Positions 2-7,928 of a stretch of DNA of 32,000 nucleotides are shown here, one piece after another. The translations under genes and the position numbers were made by a program. Numbering within the stretch: position 1 is the stretch's first letter; each line of letters starts with the position of its first letter. The stretch comes from Acaryochloris marina S15 (lineage in GTDB: Bacteria; Cyanobacteriota; Cyanobacteriia; Thermosynechococcales; Thermosynechococcaceae), in contig NZ_CP064924.1 in NCBI RefSeq assembly GCF_018336915.1, forward strand, positions 30,001 to 62,000. The letters run 5' to 3'. The notes under the pieces were generated by a model, which had not been told where the DNA came from, did no database searches, and saw only the letters and a program-made list of their open reading frames with translations.

Positions 2-496
2 CTTCCCCCTCTCCTTCTAGGATGCAGCCCACCCCCCAGCACCACGACAAATGCTATTGCTCCAGCGAATACCACTCCCGCCACAATTCTCAGAACGGGT
101 GACGGTGATACTCTCAAGGTGCGATCTCAAAATGGCACATCAAGTAAAGTCCGTGTTGGCTGTATCGATGCACCAGAGTCTAACCAGGAGTATGGCCCTG
201 AAGCTGCTCAAAGACTCAAGTCACTATTACCCAGTGGAATAACTATCGAGCTTCGGGAAATTACCACGGATCAATATGGGCGCACTGTAGCCGAGATCTA
301 CTCGGAGGGGAAATCGGTTGGCTTACAGATGGTGAGGGAAGGCTATGCCGTAGTGTACCACCGATATTTGGATGGCTGTTCAGCGACTGCGGATCAGTAT
401 GTTGCTGCTGAGGAGGAGGCACGATCCCAGAAGCTCAATTTTTGGAACCAGAGTAACCCAGAGATGCCGTGGGATTTCAGGCGGGGAAAGCGTTGA
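2..496 (+). CDS. Staphylococcal-nuclease-like thermonuclease, probable lipoprotein; 5' end cut by window edge
   Basis: The frame of ORF 119..496 stays open back to nt 2 (LPPLLLGCSPPPSTTTNAIAPANTTPATILRTGDGDTLKV...), giving the lipobox LLLGC. SNase hallmarks are RVGCIDAPE, DQYGRTVAEIY and GYAVVY. Confidence 0.85.
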   Translation, partial: LPPLLLGCSPPPSTTTNAIAPANTTPATILRTGDGDTLKVRSQNGTSSKVRVGCIDAPESNQEYGPEAAQRLKSLLPSGITIELREITTDQYGRTVAEIYSEGKSVGLQMVREGYAVVYHRYLDGCSATADQYVAAEEEARSQKLNFWNQSNPEMPWDFRRGKR

Positions 497-1245: not shown

Positions 1246-4200
1246 ATGCAACAGCAAGATAATCTTGCCGAATTGTTTGCCGCTGAGTTCCTGTCGGGTA
1301 AGTCCTATGCGTCCATCGTAGAAGCCCGATCCCAGGCAGCTCAGTTGCTGAACCAATCCGTGCGCCCTGGCAGTCCCCTTGCAAAATTGGTGGATGAGTC
1401 CATTGAGGCCGGGTTAGTTCGGGCTGCGCGGAGCATCATTGGGCAATCCCTTACCCCGATCCAAACTTATGCGGATCTGGTGGATCTGTACAATCGCCAG
1501 CCCAGGTTAAGCGTCCGATCCTCCACCAGTGTTCGCCAGCAAGCCTATTCCACTCCTCTCCCCATTGCATATCTGGCGGCCAACCTTGCAGGGGTTACGG
1601 CTAAGTCCACGGTGTATGAACCGAGTGCCGGCCACGGAGCATTGGTCCTCAATGCCACCCCCGAAAACTGCACCATCAACGAACTGAACCCAGACCGAGC
1701 AGGGGATTTAAGACGGCAGGGCTTCAGCGTTACTGAGCAGGATGCTTCGGCTTTCCTCCCAGACCAGCTGCACGATGTCGTCATCGCTAATCCTCCGTTT
1801 GGCCGAACCAAGGGAGAGAACGGAAGGACAAAACGGTTCCAACTCCCCGGCAATCCAAGGGGCACGAGCCAGATCGACCATGCGATCGCAATGCAAGCAC
1901 TTAAGGCCATGAAGCCCGATGGCCGTGCCGTCCTAATCCTCGGCGGCAAGCCCGAAACTGATCCAGGGGAACGGGCCGAAGCGTACAACACTTTAGAGAG
2001 CAGGGGGTTCTTCTATCCCTTGTATCAACAGTACGGGGTAACCCAGCACTTCACCATTTCTGGAGATTTATACAAGAAACAGGGAGCGGGTTGGCCCCTC
2101 GATGTAATCGTGATTGAGGGGAAGGGAACATCACAACGTCCATTGCCCGCCGTGGAGCCACCACAAATCTATGAATCCTTTGAAGAACTACGAGGAATAC
2201 TAAATGACTCAATCCAGGCGAGTACCAACTTACGAACAATACCTGAATTACACAAAAGTCTGGATGCCCCAGGAATCGGGGGACCAAGCGATGTTTCTGG
2301 TGAGAGTGCCAACAGAACTAGAGATGATGGAGTTCAGAACCTATCTGGATCTGATGAACTGTCGGATGGAATGGATGTTCGAGAACTGGATCAAGTATTA
2401 CGACCGTTCCAAGGACAATCTACAGAAGATGCTCTACGACACCCTTCGGCAGCTTCACCCAACCCAGGAAGCACCGAGTCCATACGACGAGGACGGGGAG
2501 AAGCAGATGTGGATCTGGGCAACGGAGTGGGGGGAAAGCCTATTAGAGTTCAACGAGACATGGGTGCAATGGATGAGACTGACCAATCCAGAGGTCAGCT
2601 TTCCAGTGGACCTGACACTCCCGCCACCGATATCTCAGGAGTCATTGATGGAGAAGCACGACGAGGTGACCATCGACCAATTTCTGATGGAATTGAGAGC
2701 CGAATTCAAGTAGACGATATCTTAATAGAGGATAGTACTGTGGCAGAAGAATTTAATACTGCGTATGTTCCTCGCAGTCAGGGACGTAGCCCAGATACGC
2801 TGATTCCAACTAACATGGCTGTCTCAGCCCAACAAGCTTTAGATCGCTTTGAGCAAGAGCATGGAAACATTGACGAGTTCGTCATGAACCGTTTGGGATA
2901 TGACTCCAAGGGGCAAATGTTTGATGTCCTCTATGCTGAGCAAATCGACTCCCTTGCACTGGCCTTTGATCAAAAAGACAAGGGCAAAATCTTCCTAAAT
3001 GGCGATCAAACTGGAAATGGTAAAGGACGGTTCGGAGCAGCCAATATAATTGATGCCCAACGGCAGGGGTATATCCCCATTTTTGTAACCCAGAAACCAA
3101 ACTTGTATGCATCTATGATCCAGGACTTAGCCGATATCGGCAGGCCAGGATGTACACCTTTTATGACAAATGCGAAGCTGTCGCTAAATCTTACTGATGG
3201 CCGGACTCTAAGAACGGGAGGATTGGCGGATCAAGAGAATGAAATGCATCGGCTGACCCAAATCGGCTTAGGGGGATATGACGCCATCTTTACGACCTAC
3301 AACCAGCTTCAAGCTATCAATAATAAAGAGCCCTATAGACGGCAGTTCTTAAGAGCATTAGCCAGTCGCGCCGTATTTATTTTTGATGAAGCCCATGAAG
3401 CAGGGGGTGGGCAAGGTCAAAGTTGGAAAAGACCATCCGATGCATCCAATCGAGCTGAGTTTGTGCGAGAGCTAGTTGACGCTTCGGCTGGAACCATTTT
3501 CATGTCAGCCACTGCCACCAAGAATCCAGCAGTCATGGATTTGTACGCTAGGCGCACTGATGCAATTCATGCCGTGAACAGCATGGAGAATCTGAGCAAC
3601 ACTCTTAAAGCTGGTGGTATACCCCTGCAGCAAATGATGGCAACCCAGTTCGTCAGTGCTGGTAATATGCTGCGCCGAGAGAGGACGTTTGAGAATATTA
3701 GTTTTAATGCCAAAACTGTTCCTGTAGATCATGAGATTGCAGACAATATCTCAGCCATTATGAGGGCTATTGATCGGTTTGATCAGGCGAAAGATGAAGC
3801 CGTCAAGGAGATGAAAAAGGTGGTTCGCAAAGAGGCCAAGTCCCTTAGTGAAGATAATTCCATTGGTAAGTCTGGTGCCCGTTCCGTTTCATTCACCTCT
3901 TTGATGCACAACGCCATTGATCAAGGCTTGCTTGCACAAAAAGCAGAGACAACCGTTCAAGAAGCCATTGCATCCCTACAAAGGGGCGAGAAGCCCCTCA
4001 TTGCCCTCGCCAGCACGATGGACTCTTTTATCGGAGATTTTGCCAAGGGCAGGAATATACAAACGGGTGATCCGATCAATATTTCTTTTGCGGATGTGTT
4101 GAAGCGCTATTTAGTACGCTCGAAAGATATCCAAATCAAAAACTATGATGGTGATTCTGATACTCGCCCCATGACGGAAGCTGAGTTAGGGGCCGAAGCC

Positions 4201-7200
4201 ATTGCAGCCTACCAAGAAGCCTATGAACTCATTACTGAGTCGGACTTCTCCCAGATTCCCCTTAGCTCCATCGACTATATGAAACATCGCCTTTCCCAAG
4301 AAGGCTATACCGTTGATGAAATCACGGGTCGACAAAGCATCATTAACTATGAGGGGGGAGAGCTAACCTATGGCTTGCGGTCCAATAGTGAGACTAAACC
4401 CCAGGCTAAGATTGATGTGGTTAATCGGTTTAATGGGGGCGACCTCGATGTAGTCATTCTCAATCGTTCAGGGGCAACAGGCATCAACCTTCACGCTTCA
4501 GAACGATTCGCAGATCAACGCCCTAGGCATATGATTGTGGCCCAAGCCGAAAGGGACATAAACCAAGTCATGCAAATGTTAGGACGTGCCAATCGCTTCG
4601 GGCAAGTCGTAGAGCCTAATTTCACTTTAGTAATGGCCGATGTCCCCGCAGAGAAGAGACTCGGTGCAATGCTAGTCAAAAAAATGGCTTCGCTCAATGC
4701 CAATACAACAGCATCCAGAGATTCAGATCTCAGTGTTGGCAATGTCACGGACTTTATGAACGCAGCTGGTGAGGAGGTGGTGACTGAGCTAATCGATGAA
4801 CATCCTGAGTTGGATGCGATGCTCTCTTATCCGAGTAGGGGAGACATTGATGGTGAGATTGGCTTAATTAGCAAAGTCACAGGCCGCATCCCACTCTTGC
4901 CCATCAAGCAACAAGCAGAACTGTACGACCTGATTGAGACGGAAACCACCGCCCTCATCCAACAGAAAGAGGCAATGGGCGAGAACGTCTTGGAGGCAGA
5001 CAAGCTGGACCTCGATGCCCGCACGATCGCCAAGATGGAAGTTGTCCCAGCAGATGCCGCGATCAAGAGCGAGTTCACTGGACCTGTCAATCTGGAAGTG
5101 GTGAATGCCAAGGTGACGACCAAGCCCCCAACACAGTTGGAAATCATCAACAATGTCCGTGAGAACTTGGGCCAGTCTAGGGTTAAGACGGTGGACGACC
5201 ATGATTCTGATGCAATTGAAGACCAGGCCAAGGAGCAGAACCGGGGCTTGAGAAATCAGGTTAAGAAGCGATTGGAAACCTATAGCCAAAAAGCGATGGG
5301 GGAGGCAAAAACCCCAGAAGCGGCAAGCCACTTAGAGACTAAGTTCGACAAACAAATGGGGCATTTCCAGGCGATCACTAATCGCTTTCAGATTGGCAGC
5401 ACTGTACAACTCGCTTCAGCAGAGGGCAAGGTTTCCTATGGGGTGGTCGCCAACATTGCACAGAAGGCTAAACCACTGGGAAGTCCCGCAGCACCGACGA
5501 ACTGGAAGATGCAAATCATCACTAGCGAAGGAAAAAACATCTCTGTTCCTTTCTCCAAAATCAACTCAGGTAAACCTTCTGCTGTAACGATCAAACCCCA
5601 GGAGAAAACCTGGAAGGGAGAGAGCATCTATGAAGACTTTGACCAGAGACAGCAAAATCTGCGCACGGAAATGCAGGTCTTCACGGGCAATCTGATCAAG
5701 GCGTATGAAGAACATCCCAAGGGCAAGTTCGTGAATTTCACCACCAATCAAGGCCAGGTGCGCCAAGGGCTGATCATGCCTGATGATTTCGACATCACGA
5801 AGCAGCTCCGGGAACGTCCCGTGATCTTTGAGGAGCCGTACCAAGTCAAAGCATTCTTGACTGAGGTGACAAAAAATCTGGGTGCAGTCCATGACAACCC
5901 AGAGAAGAACCTGGCAATCAAGGCCGATGCGGCCGCCAAGTTGCGTGGTACTCCCATCGATCATTTCGTAATCACAGTCCCCAGCTCTACCCGTGTCGGC
6001 GGCAAGTTTTTCTTGAATGAAGACTTGCTAGATGCCGCCCAGAGTGAGTTCTTCTCTGTGGCTAACCGGATGGAAATGCATGTGGCCCCTGAGAATCTAG
6101 AAGCGGCACTGAAGGTAATCATGAAAGATGAAGGCATTCAGATCGCGGCTTTCGACTTCAAAGACATGGCACGGGATTACCTAGGCCAGATGCTGCCGAC
6201 GATGGAGCAGATTGAAGAAAATCAGTTTGAGCAGCAGGCAGACTTTGTGCCCTATGTGGAGCCGACAAAAGACACCGCAACCCAGCTTGATATGCTGCTC
6301 CAGTCCGATGCTGTTGAGCCGAGTGAAACCCCGCAAGTTGAAGCTATTCAATCTGCACCGGACCAGGCCGCAGTCCAGCCGACCCAGGACAACACCAAGC
6401 AAATTGCCCCACCCGCAAATCAGACGGGCAAGGCAGAGAAGTTTGTGGCCCAGTTCCTACACGAGGGAGGATTGGCTCAGGAGATTCTGAAGGGTGATGA
6501 TTTCCACTTTGAAATCAAGAATGGTCCCTATGAACCCCTAGTGGTGGAACGGATTACGGATCAGCTTTCCTTGACTCATTACCGAGAGCGAGACGGGGAC
6601 TTATGCCTGGACTCTGAGATGGTCTTTGGAATTGACGGCCAAGGGAAGCTCAACCTTGAAGAGACGGCAGTCCAGAACCCATTTACTGGGAGAGAGGCAC
6701 GAGAACTTGATCAGGAGTTTGGGGAGCTTTTTGCAGCAAATATAATTCACCAAGGATTTGCAGAAGCAGCCCTTGAGCAGTTACCTGAGCTATTGAGGGA
6801 GCGGCAGGCAGAGCAGGCTGAAGTCTCTGAACCCAGCATCGCAGAAGCACCAAAGCAGGCTGAGCCAGAACCAGATAAGACAATAGAAGAGCCTGTACAA
6901 GGGGTTGAATCACGATCTGTACAGGAATCACCAACAGAACAGACGGTCACGCCCCTCCAAGAACCCACGGCCACAGCAAAAGCGGAGCAACCTCAGCAAG
7001 AGCCAACCGCTCAACAAGATAAAGGACCACAGCCGAAGCCCAAACCACAGGCTAAACCAGAGGACTGGCCTAAGTACGCCTCGGCTTTAAAGCGAGGTAA
7101 TGCCTACCAGGCTAGGGTGAAGGAGCGTGTTGCAGCGTATAAACAAGGAACATCGCTCAATACGCGAGCTAGTCTCGCAATGGGCAAGGACTTTAAGGAG

Positions 7201-7665
7201 TTTACACAGGGACTAAATTCACTCAAAGATTGGTATAGAACTGCTCAGAAGCTCAAGCATGACATTCCTTATTTAGAAAAGATCGCCAAAGTTGGAAATC
7301 AATTCAAGCAAGGTGGACCCATTTCTGATCGTGCTAGAGCTGCCATGAAGCAAGACATCAATCAACTCGCTTACAACCGATTCTCAGCAGGACTTAACCC
7401 AAAAAATCCACAAATACTTCTAACCAGGCTGGCCGCAAATGCAGCTAAGGCGGGACTGGCTCCTCCCAAAATCATGGGTGCTTTGTCTGTTGCCCCTGCA
7501 GTAAAATCTATTCGCTATCAAGAGGGTGAACAGGCCAGCCTCAAGTATTCCCGCAAAATCATGATGGAGGGCTTAAAACTCAAGAAGCAAGAACAACCTA
7601 AAACGGTTGCTCCAAAACAACAACGAACTCAAGATGTTAATCAAAATCAAGGGCTAGGACGATGA
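1246..7665 (+). CDS. Giant polyvalent protein: N6-adenine DNA methyltransferase + Strawberry-notch/SNF2-like DExH helicase (P1 DarB-like architecture)
   Basis: Uninterrupted 6.4-kb ORF. MTase motif I is EPSAGHG and motif IV is NPPF (1789-1800). Helicase motifs are GDQTGNGKGR (3001-3030), DEAH (3385-3396), SGATGINLHA and MQMLGRANRFGQ. It has two low-complexity linkers and a long C-terminal extension. Confidence 0.9.
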   Translation: MQQQDNLAELFAAEFLSGKSYASIVEARSQAAQLLNQSVRPGSPLAKLVDESIEAGLVRAARSIIGQSLTPIQTYADLVDLYNRQPRLSVRSSTSVRQQAYSTPLPIAYLAANLAGVTAKSTVYEPSAGHGALVLNATPENCTINELNPDRAGDLRRQGFSVTEQDASAFLPDQLHDVVIANPPFGRTKGENGRTKRFQLPGNPRGTSQIDHAIAMQALKAMKPDGRAVLILGGKPETDPGERAEAYNTLESRGFFYPLYQQYGVTQHFTISGDLYKKQGAGWPLDVIVIEGKGTSQRPLPAVEPPQIYESFEELRGILNDSIQASTNLRTIPELHKSLDAPGIGGPSDVSGESANRTRDDGVQNLSGSDELSDGMDVRELDQVLRPFQGQSTEDALRHPSAASPNPGSTESIRRGRGEADVDLGNGVGGKPIRVQRDMGAMDETDQSRGQLSSGPDTPATDISGVIDGEARRGDHRPISDGIESRIQVDDILIEDSTVAEEFNTAYVPRSQGRSPDTLIPTNMAVSAQQALDRFEQEHGNIDEFVMNRLGYDSKGQMFDVLYAEQIDSLALAFDQKDKGKIFLNGDQTGNGKGRFGAANIIDAQRQGYIPIFVTQKPNLYASMIQDLADIGRPGCTPFMTNAKLSLNLTDGRTLRTGGLADQENEMHRLTQIGLGGYDAIFTTYNQLQAINNKEPYRRQFLRALASRAVFIFDEAHEAGGGQGQSWKRPSDASNRAEFVRELVDASAGTIFMSATATKNPAVMDLYARRTDAIHAVNSMENLSNTLKAGGIPLQQMMATQFVSAGNMLRRERTFENISFNAKTVPVDHEIADNISAIMRAIDRFDQAKDEAVKEMKKVVRKEAKSLSEDNSIGKSGARSVSFTSLMHNAIDQGLLAQKAETTVQEAIASLQRGEKPLIALASTMDSFIGDFAKGRNIQTGDPINISFADVLKRYLVRSKDIQIKNYDGDSDTRPMTEAELGAEAIAAYQEAYELITESDFSQIPLSSIDYMKHRLSQEGYTVDEITGRQSIINYEGGELTYGLRSNSETKPQAKIDVVNRFNGGDLDVVILNRSGATGINLHASERFADQRPRHMIVAQAERDINQVMQMLGRANRFGQVVEPNFTLVMADVPAEKRLGAMLVKKMASLNANTTASRDSDLSVGNVTDFMNAAGEEVVTELIDEHPELDAMLSYPSRGDIDGEIGLISKVTGRIPLLPIKQQAELYDLIETETTALIQQKEAMGENVLEADKLDLDARTIAKMEVVPADAAIKSEFTGPVNLEVVNAKVTTKPPTQLEIINNVRENLGQSRVKTVDDHDSDAIEDQAKEQNRGLRNQVKKRLETYSQKAMGEAKTPEAASHLETKFDKQMGHFQAITNRFQIGSTVQLASAEGKVSYGVVANIAQKAKPLGSPAAPTNWKMQIITSEGKNISVPFSKINSGKPSAVTIKPQEKTWKGESIYEDFDQRQQNLRTEMQVFTGNLIKAYEEHPKGKFVNFTTNQGQVRQGLIMPDDFDITKQLRERPVIFEEPYQVKAFLTEVTKNLGAVHDNPEKNLAIKADAAAKLRGTPIDHFVITVPSSTRVGGKFFLNEDLLDAAQSEFFSVANRMEMHVAPENLEAALKVIMKDEGIQIAAFDFKDMARDYLGQMLPTMEQIEENQFEQQADFVPYVEPTKDTATQLDMLLQSDAVEPSETPQVEAIQSAPDQAAVQPTQDNTKQIAPPANQTGKAEKFVAQFLHEGGLAQEILKGDDFHFEIKNGPYEPLVVERITDQLSLTHYRERDGDLCLDSEMVFGIDGQGKLNLEETAVQNPFTGREARELDQEFGELFAANIIHQGFAEAALEQLPELLRERQAEQAEVSEPSIAEAPKQAEPEPDKTIEEPVQGVESRSVQESPTEQTVTPLQEPTATAKAEQPQQEPTAQQDKGPQPKPKPQAKPEDWPKYASALKRGNAYQARVKERVAAYKQGTSLNTRASLAMGKDFKEFTQGLNSLKDWYRTAQKLKHDIPYLEKIAKVGNQFKQGGPISDRARAAMKQDINQLAYNRFSAGLNPKNPQILLTRLAANAAKAGLAPPKIMGALSVAPAVKSIRYQEGEQASLKYSRKIMMEGLKLKKQEQPKTVAPKQQRTQDVNQNQGLGR
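2204..2713 (+). CDS. Candidate overlapping (+1 frame) gene embedded in the linker of the giant gene; 169-aa Trp/Met-rich helical protein of unknown function
   Basis: The ATG is the first codon after an in-frame TAA (2201-2203). GAGGAA lies at 2192-2197 with a 6-nt spacer. The translation is protein-like, unlike other off-frame ORFs in this gene. All 8 main-frame NTA codons in the interval are followed by a pyrimidine, and none of the 9 NTG codons by A, so no +1 stop arises. Expression is unproven. Confidence 0.35.
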   Translation: MTQSRRVPTYEQYLNYTKVWMPQESGDQAMFLVRVPTELEMMEFRTYLDLMNCRMEWMFENWIKYYDRSKDNLQKMLYDTLRQLHPTQEAPSPYDEDGEKQMWIWATEWGESLLEFNETWVQWMRLTNPEVSFPVDLTLPPPISQESLMEKHDEVTIDQFLMELRAEFK

Positions 7666-7928
7666 ATGATGATCTCGAACTATCGCCAGAAATCATTGAA
7701 GGCGCAAAGATAATACAGCTGGGTCAATCACTGCTAAAGCTGAAAAATTCTCTTGAATATGCTCGTGAAGAGGCTGAAGCCTCGATCAAAAATGCTGAAG
7801 CTCTGGGCAGGACTGAAATCGCAACTGAAGCCGACTTTATATTGATGAGCGTGAAAACTCTACAACAAAAAATGCAAAATCCCCAGATTCAGGAATGGAT
7901 GGCGGCTGAGGAGGAGGTTCCTTTTTAA
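7662..7928 (+). CDS. Small acidic helical hypothetical protein, translationally coupled to the giant gene
   Basis: Its ATG overlaps the TGA of the upstream gene (ATGA at 7662-7665). 88 aa with coiled-coil-like composition. Confidence 0.55.
   Translation: MNDDLELSPEIIEGAKIIQLGQSLLKLKNSLEYAREEAEASIKNAEALGRTEIATEADFILMSVKTLQQKMQNPQIQEWMAAEEEVPF

What the first reader, a model, noticed from the sequence alone, without database searches (positions are those of the whole stretch)
2204..2713. Candidate overprinted gene in the +1 frame of the giant methyltransferase-helicase gene, coextensive with its disordered linker
Position and frame: ORF 2204..2713 is in the +1 frame of the 2139-aa gene ((2204-1246) mod 3 = 1). 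It coincides with that protein's first low-complexity linker (main-frame residues ~320-490, rich in G/D/S/R/E/P) between the MTase and helicase modules. Start context: the ATG is the first codon after an in-frame TAA (2201-2203) and is preceded by GAGGAA (2192-2197, 6-nt spacer). Translation: it does not look like the R/S/P-rich junk of the other off-frame ORFs in this gene (6212..6490, 6905..7090). It reads as amphipathic helices (DNLQKMLYDTLRQL, KQMWIWATEWGESLLEFNETWVQWM, SQESLMEKHDEVTIDQFLMELRAEFK). Stop avoidance: +1 stops can only form at main-frame NTA followed by a purine, or NTG followed by A. Between 2203 and 2709 I count 8 NTA codons (2230, 2239, 2248, 2341, 2395, 2398, 2434, 2482), all followed by C or T, and 9 NTG codons, none followed by A. 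Yet about two thirds of main-frame codons here begin with a purine (hand count 111 of 171; 0.35^8 is about 2e-4 if neighbours were independent). Elsewhere in the same gene NTA-purine junctions are ordinary (gta|gaa at 1318-1323, tta|gtt at 1414-1419). Codon choice: in the linker, 15 of 22 Gly codons are GGA and 11 of 16 Arg codons are CGA, as if main-frame third positions (the second position of the +1 frame) were constrained. Possible readings: an internally initiated overlapping gene; a relic of a once separate gene that became the linker in another frame when the two enzymes fused; or a frameshift isoform. Caveats: hydrophobic-poor linkers are intrinsically poor in +1 stops. The high Trp (8) and Met (13) content and the GAC/AAG bias of the +1 ORF follow mechanically from the main-frame composition.
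Basis: partly seen in the sequence, partly recalled or inferred. Interest (0 to 1): 0.8.

Follow-up and report, generated by a model that had tools for sequence, protein, structure and literature searches.

The report
Conserved gene nested inside giant plasmid gene
The 169-codon reading frame hidden in the +1 frame of the giant methyltransferase-helicase gene is very likely a real, unannotated protein-coding gene: it is conserved across cyanobacterial plasmids, while the "linker" of the giant protein that shares its DNA evolves as a neutral spacer.

Summary
Comparative evidence turns the candidate into a strongly supported nested gene.

- **Conservation of both frames.** 28 orthologous cyanobacterial loci, plus Chroococcidiopsis plasmid pB and a remote IMG/VR relative, keep a homologous +1 ORF. 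In the 28 measured it is 153-174 codons and the main frame is also open. Each frame would carry about 2-6 stops if synonymous codons were permuted.
- **Direction of selection.** Across the overlap, substitutions follow the +1 frame. Main-frame third positions are the least variable. An overlap-aware dN/dS is 0.37 for the +1 protein and 1.15 for the main-frame linker.
- **Start signal.** The ATG is invariant in all 28 loci with enough upstream sequence, while the main-frame residues over it vary. A Shine-Dalgarno-like motif precedes it in 26 of the 28.
- **Fold.** With a 39-sequence alignment AlphaFold gives pLDDT 93.6. The fold and the sequence match nothing known.
- **Free-standing copies.** Two relatives are free-standing genes whose other frames are full of stops.
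- **Outgroups.** Proteobacterial homologues of the giant gene have the fusion and a linker but no such gene.

What the small acidic protein does is unknown, and translation has not been shown experimentally. The gene is absent from the annotation of all six plasmid records I inspected, including pAQ6 of the model strain PCC 7002.

The parts
1246..7665 (+). Host gene: a 2139-aa DarB-like 'polyvalent' protein, made of an N6-adenine methyltransferase, a linker, a Strawberry-notch-type SF2 helicase, DUF6908 and a C-terminal region
   Evidence: ORF list. Pfam hits N6_Mtase, AAA_34, ResIII, Helicase_C_4 and DUF6908. PADLOC MTase models. The class is described in PMC5512222.
1537..1998 (+). Methyltransferase core of the host protein (aa 98-251)
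   Evidence: PADLOC mad2 matches aa 98-251 and Pfam N6_Mtase matches aa 172-232.
2192..2197 (+). Shine-Dalgarno-like GAGGAA, 6 nt upstream of the nested gene's ATG. It is also read as main-frame ...RGI... at the conserved end of the MTase module.
   Evidence: Sequence. An SD-like 4-mer starts 8-18 nt upstream of the ATG in 26 of 28 orthologous loci. That it functions as a ribosome-binding site is inferred.
2201..2203 (+). TAA in the +1 frame directly before the ATG. It excludes read-in from upstream in that frame.
   Evidence: Upstream +1 stops lie 0-5 codons before the ATG in 19 of the 28 loci.
2204..2206 (+). Start codon of the nested gene
   Evidence: The ATG is invariant in 28/28 loci. The main-frame codons over it vary: NAT encoding D, N, H or Y, then E, A, D or V.
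2204..2713 (+). Nested gene in the +1 frame: a 169-aa acidic, Trp-rich protein (pI 4.5) from a new family with no known homologue or fold match
   Evidence: Homologues. Purifying selection. AlphaFold pLDDT 93.6. No Pfam, NCBIfam, PHROG, PADLOC, PDB or BFVD match.
2203..2715 (+). Main-frame 'linker' (aa 320-490), rich in G, D, S, R, P and E. It is kept open but evolves neutrally at the amino-acid level.
   Evidence: Main-frame dN/dS 1.15 (CI 0.98-1.38). Main-frame identity of 0.25 is no higher than the 0.27 of the unused +2 frame. P(main frame open | +1 protein) is at most 0.012 in each of 28 loci.
2764..4974 (+). Helicase module. Main-frame conservation resumes at YVPRSQGRSP, and normal third-position variability returns.
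   Evidence: Alignment A3 shows 71-83% identity. Flank divergence by codon position is 0.26/0.18/0.57. Pfam AAA_34 and Helicase_C_4 cover aa 554-1243.

Best explanation
**What it is.** Interval 2204..2713 is a dual-coding region. It holds a real protein-coding gene of 169 codons nested in the +1 frame of a giant DarB-like methyltransferase-helicase ('polyvalent') gene. This kind of giant gene is carried by cyanobacterial plasmids that are typed as mobilizable.

**Which frame is selected (shown).** Both frames are kept free of stops. The amino-acid-level constraint lies almost entirely on the nested frame. The host frame is translated here only as a flexible, sequence-indifferent spacer between the methyltransferase and helicase modules, so it can afford to follow the nested gene.

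**How the small protein is made (inferred).** It starts by independent internal initiation at the invariant ATG, preceded by a Shine-Dalgarno-like motif, on the same mRNA as the giant gene. This would give obligatory co-expression.

**The product.** It is a compact, mostly helical, acidic protein (median pI 4.6, net charge about -12, about 7 Trp) with no detectable relative of known function.

**Function (inferred, low confidence).** It may be an accessory factor of the plasmid's DNA-entry and anti-restriction programme. Two forms of this are possible:
- a partner, chaperone or regulator of the giant protein;
- an independent anti-defence effector. The survival of free-standing copies favours a function that does not strictly need coupling in cis.
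For: 1. **ORF conservation.** A profile of the small protein finds a full-length intact +1 ORF in 28 of 30 loci. The 28 measure 153-174 codons from the conserved ATG. One of the other two is cut by a contig end and one is degraded in both frames. Chroococcidiopsis plasmid pB adds a divergent member with a 150-codon +1 open stretch, and the IMG/VR contig L038 adds a remote one of 136 codons.
2. **Both frames held open.** In each of 28 loci P(+1 open | main protein, synonymous codons permuted) is at most 0.06, and mostly at most 0.008. P(main open | +1 protein) is at most 0.012.
3. **Substitution periodicity.** Divergence follows the +1 frame: 0.476/0.386/0.579 at +1 positions 1/2/3. The main-frame third position is therefore the least variable. 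The flanking helicase shows the normal pattern, 0.26/0.18/0.57. The result is unchanged when the alignment is guided by the main frame.
4. **Amino-acid identity.** Mean pairwise identity is 0.39 in the +1 frame, 0.25 in the main frame and 0.27 in the +2 frame. The +1 frame exceeds the main frame in 378 of 378 pairs.
5. **Overlap-aware dN/dS.** The +1 gene gives 0.37 (bootstrap CI 0.32-0.43) and the main frame 1.15 (0.98-1.38). The +1 value is below the main-frame value in each of 10 disjoint pairs.
6. **Start signal.** The ATG is invariant while the main-frame residues over it change. An SD-like motif is present in 26 of 28 loci.
7. **Fold.** AlphaFold2 with a 39-sequence alignment gives pLDDT 93.6 and pTM 0.89, against 50 with 4 sequences. 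This indicates a co-evolving folded protein.
8. **Free-standing relatives.** They keep the ORF while the other frames carry stops. L045 has 19 and 11 stops over the ORF span and lies between murD and panB on a 270-kb contig. L042 has 5 stops in the frame that corresponds to the main frame.
9. **Independent gene calls.** Independent metagenome pipelines called the small ORF as a gene.
Against: - There is no experimental evidence of translation. No Ribo-seq, proteomic or transcript data could be consulted.
- The SD-like motif also encodes a conserved main-frame motif (ELKEL / QLRGF), so its conservation is not independent evidence. Its spacing in many loci (about 10-11 nt) is longer than optimal.
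- Initiation inside a translated ORF is usually inefficient.
- The dN/dS estimates use uncorrected distances, and pairs were chosen by hand.
- Function is unsupported by any homology: Pfam, NCBIfam, PHROGs, PADLOC, PDB sequence search and Foldseek on PDB and BFVD all return nothing.
- Free-standing copies weaken the idea of an obligate partnership in cis.
Confidence: 0.85

Rival explanations
1. Chance ORF. A hydrophobic-poor, G/D/S/R-rich linker is intrinsically poor in +1 stops, so a long +1 ORF appears without any function.
For: This is true for outgroup linkers. The 139-codon +1 ORF in the Thalassospira linker has P(open) = 0.72, and other +1 ORFs in the window's own gene have P(open) 0.16-0.71.
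Against: Here about 5 stops are expected and P(open) is at most 0.0004. The same holds in 28 orthologues. The ORF is homologous across loci, with +1 dN/dS of 0.37, an invariant ATG and a confident fold.
Confidence: 0.01
2. Frameshift isoform. Ribosomes translating the methyltransferase shift to +1 and produce an MTase-X fusion that ends at 2713. The ORF would then be a C-terminal extension, not a separate gene.
For: In some loci the +1 frame is open for 16-89 codons upstream of the ATG (L004-L007, L009, L012, L015, L016). One metagenomic variant (P0057) fuses the small ORF to the helicase frame.
Against: A +1-frame stop lies 0-5 codons before the ATG in 19 of the 28 loci; in the window it is directly adjacent. 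The ATG is invariant while the main-frame residues over it vary. Free-standing copies start at the same place. I did not run a dedicated scan for conserved slippery sites.
Confidence: 0.04
3. Misannotated operon. There are really three genes (methyltransferase, small gene, helicase), and the main frame across 2203-2715 is not translated; the 'giant gene' is an annotation artefact.
For: Metagenome gene callers split the locus exactly this way on short contigs. In L042 an MTase-like gene ends with a stop that overlaps the small gene's ATG.
Against: The main frame is stop-free across the overlap in 28/28 loci, although about 3-6 stops are expected given the +1 protein (P at most 0.012 each). The methyltransferase part has no stop, and the helicase part has no conserved start codon. 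Proteobacterial homologues are continuous MTase-linker-helicase proteins with no nested gene.
Confidence: 0.05
4. Non-functional relic, or a nucleotide-level constraint such as RNA structure or a DNA site, rather than a protein.
For: None is specific to this reading. The origin from a once-separate gene cannot be excluded.
Against: Three-base periodicity follows the +1 frame, dN/dS is 0.37, and stop avoidance has been maintained across deep divergence (+1 identity to the window's protein down to about 22%). The AlphaFold model depends on co-variation in the protein alignment. A relic would have accumulated stops, as the other frames of L045 and L042 have.
Confidence: 0.02

Closest known systems
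Hepatitis B virus polymerase spacer overlapping the preS/S envelope gene (from my own knowledge; not tested here)
   Same: A gene is nested in the +1 frame of a much longer multidomain enzyme gene. Its preS part falls on a sequence-tolerant, disordered spacer between two functional modules, so the host frame yields to the nested one.
   Different: HBV is a 3.2-kb virus under extreme genome compression and makes the nested protein from its own transcripts. Here the host is a plasmid of tens to hundreds of kb with no obvious pressure on size, and expression is presumably by internal initiation on the same mRNA.
Bacterial and phage same-strand nested genes: comS inside srfAB of Bacillus subtilis, Rz1 inside Rz of phage lambda (from my own knowledge)
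   Same: Each is a complete ORF with its own start, embedded out of frame within a larger gene on the same strand and functionally tied to the host operon.
   Different: Those products are short (about 46 and about 60 aa) and taxonomically narrow. This one is about 155-175 aa with a confidently predicted globular fold. It is conserved from Picosynechococcus to Leptolyngbya and Chroococcidiopsis, and it carries more constraint than the host frame.
Long embedded overlapping genes reported in Pseudomonas aeruginosa (olg1/olg2, PMC8850804) and E. coli O157:H7 (PMC9927249)
   Same: These are long ORFs embedded in annotated bacterial genes and argued to be functional from selection analyses and, in those cases, ribosome profiling (abstracts).
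   Different: Those are antisense, evolutionarily young and narrowly distributed, and their host genes remain the more constrained partner. This one is on the sense strand in the +1 frame, is deeply conserved, dominates the constraint, and has free-standing homologues. It lacks any expression data.
Phage P1 DarB and the MTase-helicase dyad of 'polyvalent proteins' (Iyer et al. 2017, PMC5512222)
   Same: The host gene has the defining adenine-MTase fused N-terminally to an SF2 (Strawberry-notch-type) helicase. Its orthologues sit on plasmids with MOBF or MOBP relaxases.
   Different: That paper's text has no occurrence of 'overlapping', 'linker' or 'low-complexity', so a nested gene in the inter-module linker is not described there. 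Proteobacterial members that I inspected lack one.

Membership tests
Nested same-strand overlapping (dual-coding) protein genes | Two ORFs in different frames over the same nucleotides, each maintained open beyond what composition predicts, across orthologues | tested here: met
   28/28 loci have both frames open. Permutation probabilities are at most 0.06 for the +1 frame and at most 0.012 for the main frame in each locus.
Nested same-strand overlapping (dual-coding) protein genes | Purifying selection on the alternative-frame protein, measured with an overlap-aware estimator | tested here: met
   dNN/dNS = 0.37 (CI 0.32-0.43). The host frame's dNN/dSN = 1.15. Codon-position periodicity follows the +1 frame.
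Nested same-strand overlapping (dual-coding) protein genes | Own translation start signal | tested here: met
   The ATG is invariant in 28/28 loci while the overlapping main-frame residues vary. An SD-like motif is present in 26/28. Its activity as a start site is inferred.
Nested same-strand overlapping (dual-coding) protein genes | Product detected in cells (Ribo-seq initiation peak, peptides, tagged protein) | not testable with these tools
   No expression data are accessible. Literature searches found nothing on this locus.
DarB-like MTase-helicase polyvalent proteins (host gene) | EcoKI/TaqI-type adenine MTase fused upstream of an SF2 / SWI2-SNF2 or Strawberry-notch helicase in one polypeptide | tested here: met
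   Pfam N6_Mtase, AAA_34, ResIII and Helicase_C_4 lie in one 2139-aa ORF. 262 plasmids carry homologues annotated as strawberry-notch proteins.
DarB-like MTase-helicase polyvalent proteins (host gene) | Carried by a conjugative element or phage and delivered with the DNA | tested here: inconclusive
   Orthologues lie on MOBF or MOBP plasmids typed as mobilizable, and L030 lies next to a TraG/VirD4 coupling protein. In the window itself only an SNase gene upstream hints at a mobile element. Protein transfer is not testable.
Programmed +1 ribosomal frameshift products | The alternative frame is open upstream of the new coding part, so that a fusion can form at a conserved shift site | tested here: not met
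   A +1-frame stop lies 0-5 codons upstream of the ATG in 19 of the 28 loci; in the window it is adjacent.
Acidic DNA-mimic anti-restriction proteins (ArdA, Ocr) | Sequence or fold similarity to ArdA or Ocr | tested here: not met
   No Pfam hit. Foldseek against PDB finds nothing with E < 0.8 or TM > 0.29. Only the acidity (pI about 4.6) and the size resemble them.
Small acidic secretion chaperones or adaptors (VirE1, IcmS/IcmW type) | Homology to a known chaperone family, or demonstrated binding to the secreted substrate | tested here: not met
   No sequence or fold match. Binding is not testable. The resemblance is limited to size, acidity and genetic linkage to a putative transferred protein.

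The most novel reading that the evidence does not exclude
The nested gene was born de novo by overprinting. The argument runs as follows:
- The MTase-linker-helicase fusion predates it. Proteobacterial homologues have the fusion and a linker but no such gene.
- Outgroup linkers are intrinsically free of +1 stops (Thalassospira, P(open) = 0.72), which supplies a ready-made proto-ORF.
- In the cyanobacterial lineage this frame acquired a start codon and evolved into a compact protein of about 165 aa with a fold unlike anything in PDB or BFVD.
- It then took over the selective constraint from the host frame, and later escaped at least twice to become a free-standing chromosomal gene.

If true, this would be a rare documented case in a cellular replicon of a globular, novel-fold protein arising from the alternative frame of a disordered linker.
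Probability: 0.35. Interest if true: 0.9.

Novelty: new member of a known kind. Interest (0 to 1): 0.8.

Why it matters
- **Rarity.** Long, well-supported, same-strand nested genes are very rare in bacterial replicons, and annotation pipelines forbid them by design. This one is missing from the annotation of all six plasmid records I inspected, including pAQ6 of the model strain PCC 7002.
- **Strength of evidence.** The evolutionary evidence is unusually strong and internally controlled: two frames, flanks, outgroups and free-standing copies.
- **A general principle.** Disordered inter-domain linkers of giant proteins are permissive places where a second gene can live or be born at almost no cost. 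Other "low-complexity linkers" may therefore be worth scanning.
- **A new protein family.** The finding adds an unknown acidic protein family, probably with a new fold, to the anti-restriction and establishment gene set of cyanobacterial plasmids.
- **Testability.** The question is directly testable in a genetically tractable organism, using mutations that are silent in the host frame.

Tried and rejected
- **Known families for the 169-aa protein.** I found no match in Pfam (best hit IL6, E = 0.064), NCBIfam, PHROGs or PADLOC. A PDB profile search and Foldseek on PDB and BFVD also gave nothing.
- **First structure prediction.** With only 4 sequences AlphaFold was uninformative (pLDDT 50).
- **Pattern scans with the small-protein alignments.** The genome-contig scan failed with A2 (no conserved stretch) and found nothing with A1. 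I had to search with the conserved main-frame flank instead, which biases that sample towards embedded copies.
- **Near-identical DNA.** None was found in PLSDB.
- **Thalassospira +1 linker ORF as a remote homologue.**
  - The ORF is expected from composition.
  - It has no homologues.
  - hhalign gives a probability of 1%.
  - The family HMM gives E = 1.4.
  - I treat it as unproven.
- **P0035.** This 2117-aa hit in the representative search is a repetitive surface protein and is spurious.
- **Antisense ORF 1545..1991.** It looked non-random in the window (P = 0.002) but carries 13-25 stops in orthologues, so I rejected it.
- **Internal promoter.** No sigma-70-like promoter was found between 900 and 3000.
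- **Codon-usage test for the ancestral frame.** I considered it but did not run it. The asymmetry of present-day selection would confound it.
- **Literature.** Searches found no description of this nested gene.
Full report
**1. Checking the observation**

ORF 2204..2713 is real. It lies in the +1 frame of the 2139-aa gene 1246..7665 and is open for exactly 169 codons between TAA (2201-2203) and TAG (2711-2713), beginning with ATG. It is the longest +1 stretch in a frame that otherwise has 93 stops; the next longest is 101 codons.

- 8 internal NTA codons followed by a pyrimidine
- 9 NTG codons not followed by A
- 111 of 170 codons starting with a purine
- GGA in 15 of 22 Gly codons
- CGA in 11 of 16 Arg codons

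Holding the main-frame protein fixed, the chance of no +1 stop is 0.017 with whole-gene codon usage. It is 0.0004 when the linker's own synonymous codons are permuted, and 0/20000 for codon shuffles.

The same test on the other long alternative-frame ORFs of this gene gives P = 0.12-1.0. Those ORFs are explained by composition. The one exception is an antisense ORF in the MTase region with P = 0.002. It carries 13-25 stops in orthologues, so it is chance.

**2. Homologues**

The 169-aa translation has no Pfam, NCBIfam, PHROG or PADLOC family. It does have homologues:
- Three full-length proteins of 167-171 aa at 54-56% identity were called as genes on short JGI contigs. On those contigs both the +1 ORF and the main frame are open, and the gene caller preferred the small ORF.
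- tblastn against PLSDB finds it in five cyanobacterial plasmids: pAQ6 of Picosynechococcus PCC 7002, plasmids of PCC 7003, PCC 7117 and NIES-970, and one of Leptolyngbya NIES-3755. In every case it lies inside the annotated giant helicase gene, in its +1 frame, and is itself unannotated.
- I then searched one genome per species, using the conserved main-frame flank as the query. This returned 21 more cyanobacterial loci.
- A profile of the small protein finds a full-length intact +1 ORF in 28 of 30 loci. One of the other two is cut by a contig end and one is degraded in both frames.
- Chroococcidiopsis plasmid pB has a divergent member, and an IMG/VR contig has a remote one.
- An exhaustive profile search of 1.84 billion cluster representatives gives 44 clusters. 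Almost all are proteins of about 140-200 aa. They are unnamed and come only from metagenome pipelines.

**3. Which frame is under selection**

In the overlap, mean pairwise nucleotide divergence at +1-frame codon positions 1/2/3 is 0.476/0.386/0.579. The main frame's third position is therefore its least variable and its first position its most variable. The adjacent helicase region shows the normal pattern of 0.263/0.181/0.569. An alignment guided by the main-frame protein gives the same answer.

Mean pairwise amino-acid identity is 0.39 in the +1 frame, 0.25 in the main frame and 0.27 in the unused +2 frame. The +1 frame exceeds the main frame in all 378 pairs.

I ran an OLGenie-style partition of sites on 10 disjoint pairs. 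It gives dN/dS = 0.37 for the nested gene (bootstrap CI 0.32-0.43) and 1.15 for the main-frame linker (0.98-1.38). Twenty-nine pairs with under 30% divergence give 0.32 and 1.08.

Both frames are nevertheless actively kept open. In each of 28 loci P(+1 open | main protein) is at most 0.06, mostly at most 0.008, and P(main open | +1 protein) is at most 0.012.

The region is therefore truly dual-coding. The nested frame carries the sequence constraint, and the host frame is constrained only to remain readable.

Those main-frame third positions are second positions of the nested protein's Asp and Glu codons.

**4. Expression signals**

The ATG is invariant in 28/28 loci. The two main-frame codons over it vary freely within what an ATG allows: NAT encoding D, N, H or Y, then G-initial codons encoding E, A, D or V. 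A GGAG/GAGG/AGGA motif lies 8-18 nt upstream in 26 of 28 loci. That motif also encodes the conserved end of the MTase module, so its conservation is not independent evidence.

A +1-frame stop lies 0-5 codons upstream of the ATG in 19 of the 28 loci, and directly adjacent in the window. This rules out a general MTase-X frameshift fusion. No sigma-70-like promoter was detected inside the gene. Internal initiation on the giant gene's mRNA is therefore the inferred route.

**5. The product**

- With four sequences AlphaFold2 was uninformative (pLDDT 50). With 39 family members it gives pLDDT 93.6 and pTM 0.89, a helical bundle with short strands.
- Foldseek finds nothing in PDB or BFVD (best E about 0.7, TM at most 0.29). 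A PDB sequence-profile search also finds nothing.
- The family is uniformly acidic (median pI 4.6, net charge about -12) and Trp-rich.
- The invariant residues are R54, W105, W109 and L161. That looks like a binding or scaffold protein rather than an enzyme; this is inference.

**6. The host gene and its outgroups**

The giant protein is an adenine-MTase plus Strawberry-notch-type SF2 helicase plus DUF6908. This is the DarB-like 'MTase-helicase dyad' of the polyvalent proteins of conjugative elements and phages (PMC5512222).

Homologues occur on 262 PLSDB plasmids, mostly proteobacterial. The Xanthomonas, Pseudomonas, Acinetobacter, Yersinia and Thalassospira members are continuous MTase-linker-helicase proteins. 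None has a homologue of the small protein in any frame.

The Thalassospira linker does contain a 139-codon +1 ORF, but the evidence does not make it a homologue:
- It is expected from composition (P = 0.72).
- It has no homologues.
- Its resemblance to the family is not significant.

**7. Free-standing copies**

I could inspect twelve metagenomic family members. Ten are embedded in the +1 frame of an open main frame (L001-L003, L030, L031, L039-L041, L043, L044). Two are not:
- **L045** lies on a 270-kb contig between murD and panB. Its other two forward frames carry 19 and 11 stops over the ORF span.
- **L042** has 5 stops in the frame corresponding to the main frame. An MTase-like gene ends at an ATGA overlap with the small gene's start, and no helicase lies within 440 nt downstream.

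The free-standing copies show independently that the small ORF is a gene in its own right.

In a midpoint-rooted NJ tree without bootstrap support they sit at two places inside the embedded diversity. This suggests escapes rather than ancestors.

**8. Interpretation**

- **Shown:** a conserved protein-coding gene nested in the inter-module linker of a polyvalent plasmid gene. The nested frame dominates the constraint.
- **Inferred:** internal initiation at the ATG and obligatory co-expression with the giant protein.
- **Speculative:** the function. It may be an accessory of the plasmid's entry and anti-restriction programme, either as a partner or chaperone of the giant protein or as an independent acidic effector. 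The free-standing copies favour a function that does not need coupling in cis.
- **Unresolved:** the origin.
  - The outgroup pattern and the intrinsically stop-poor outgroup linkers favour de novo overprinting within an older fusion.
  - Capture of a pre-existing gene cannot be excluded.

**9. Comparison with known systems, and novelty**

In architecture this most resembles the HBV polymerase spacer / preS overlap, and in bacteria comS within srfAB or Rz1 within Rz (from my own knowledge). It is much longer and more deeply conserved than the bacterial examples.

Unlike the antisense overlapping genes reported in Pseudomonas and E. coli (PMC8850804, PMC9927249), it is on the sense strand, is old, and is more constrained than its host.

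I found no paper describing it. It is not annotated in any of the six plasmid records I inspected.

I class it as a new member of a known kind, nested dual-coding genes, encoding a new protein family. Interest is high because the evidence is strong and the case is directly testable in PCC 7002.

Noticed in passing
P0057 (ENA, 64-kb contig; relative of L010): A 2067-aa gene call starts at the small ORF's ATG and switches into the helicase frame about 25 codons before the small ORF's normal stop. This is either a natural or an assembly frameshift that fuses the small protein to the helicase. The giant protein in this lineage also ends in a Toprim/primase-like region.
   Followed up: partly
L045:3001-3588 and L042:69-548: These are free-standing homologues of the nested gene. 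L045 lies between murD and panB on a 270-kb contig. Its product carries a roughly 40-aa N-terminal extension that is shared with P0027 and P0040. In L042 an MTase-like ORF ends at an ATGA overlap with the small gene's start.
   Followed up: partly
window 1545..1991 (- strand): This 148-aa antisense ORF inside the MTase domain lies in a stop-free stretch (1548-2012, 155 codons). The stretch is unexpectedly stop-free under synonymous permutation (P = 0.002). The same antisense frame carries 13-25 stops in orthologues, so it is a chance ORF.
   Followed up: yes
L009 (contig labelled Sphingobacterium thalpophilum MAG): In this region the contig is nearly identical to Picosynechococcus PCC 7002 pAQ6. 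This is probably a binning contaminant in a Bacteroidota MAG.
   Followed up: no
window 7662..7928 (+): An 88-aa ORF whose ATG overlaps the giant gene's stop (ATGA). It looks like a translationally coupled downstream gene. It has no Pfam match.
   Followed up: no
window 119..496 (+): A staphylococcal-nuclease (SNase) homologue lies just upstream of the giant gene. The rest of the window (Ser/Thr kinase, HEAT/cNMP-binding protein, MFS and AI-2E transporters) looks like ordinary cyanobacterial cargo or chromosome.
   Followed up: partly
L007 (pAQ6, NC_010480.1 97510-103992): In pAQ6 a separate N-6 DNA methylase gene and a RelE/ParE toxin cassette sit directly upstream of the giant gene, which starts later than in the other loci.
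   Followed up: no
L037:2471-2887 (Thalassospira lucentensis plasmid; giant gene of 18.4 kb): The linker holds a 139-codon +1 ORF at the same relative position. It is expected from composition, has no homologues, and shows only a weak, non-significant motif resemblance to the family.
   Followed up: yes
L031:2687-3608: The methyltransferase part is broken into three frames, while the small ORF and the helicase frame downstream remain intact. This may be a decaying copy or assembly errors.
   Followed up: no
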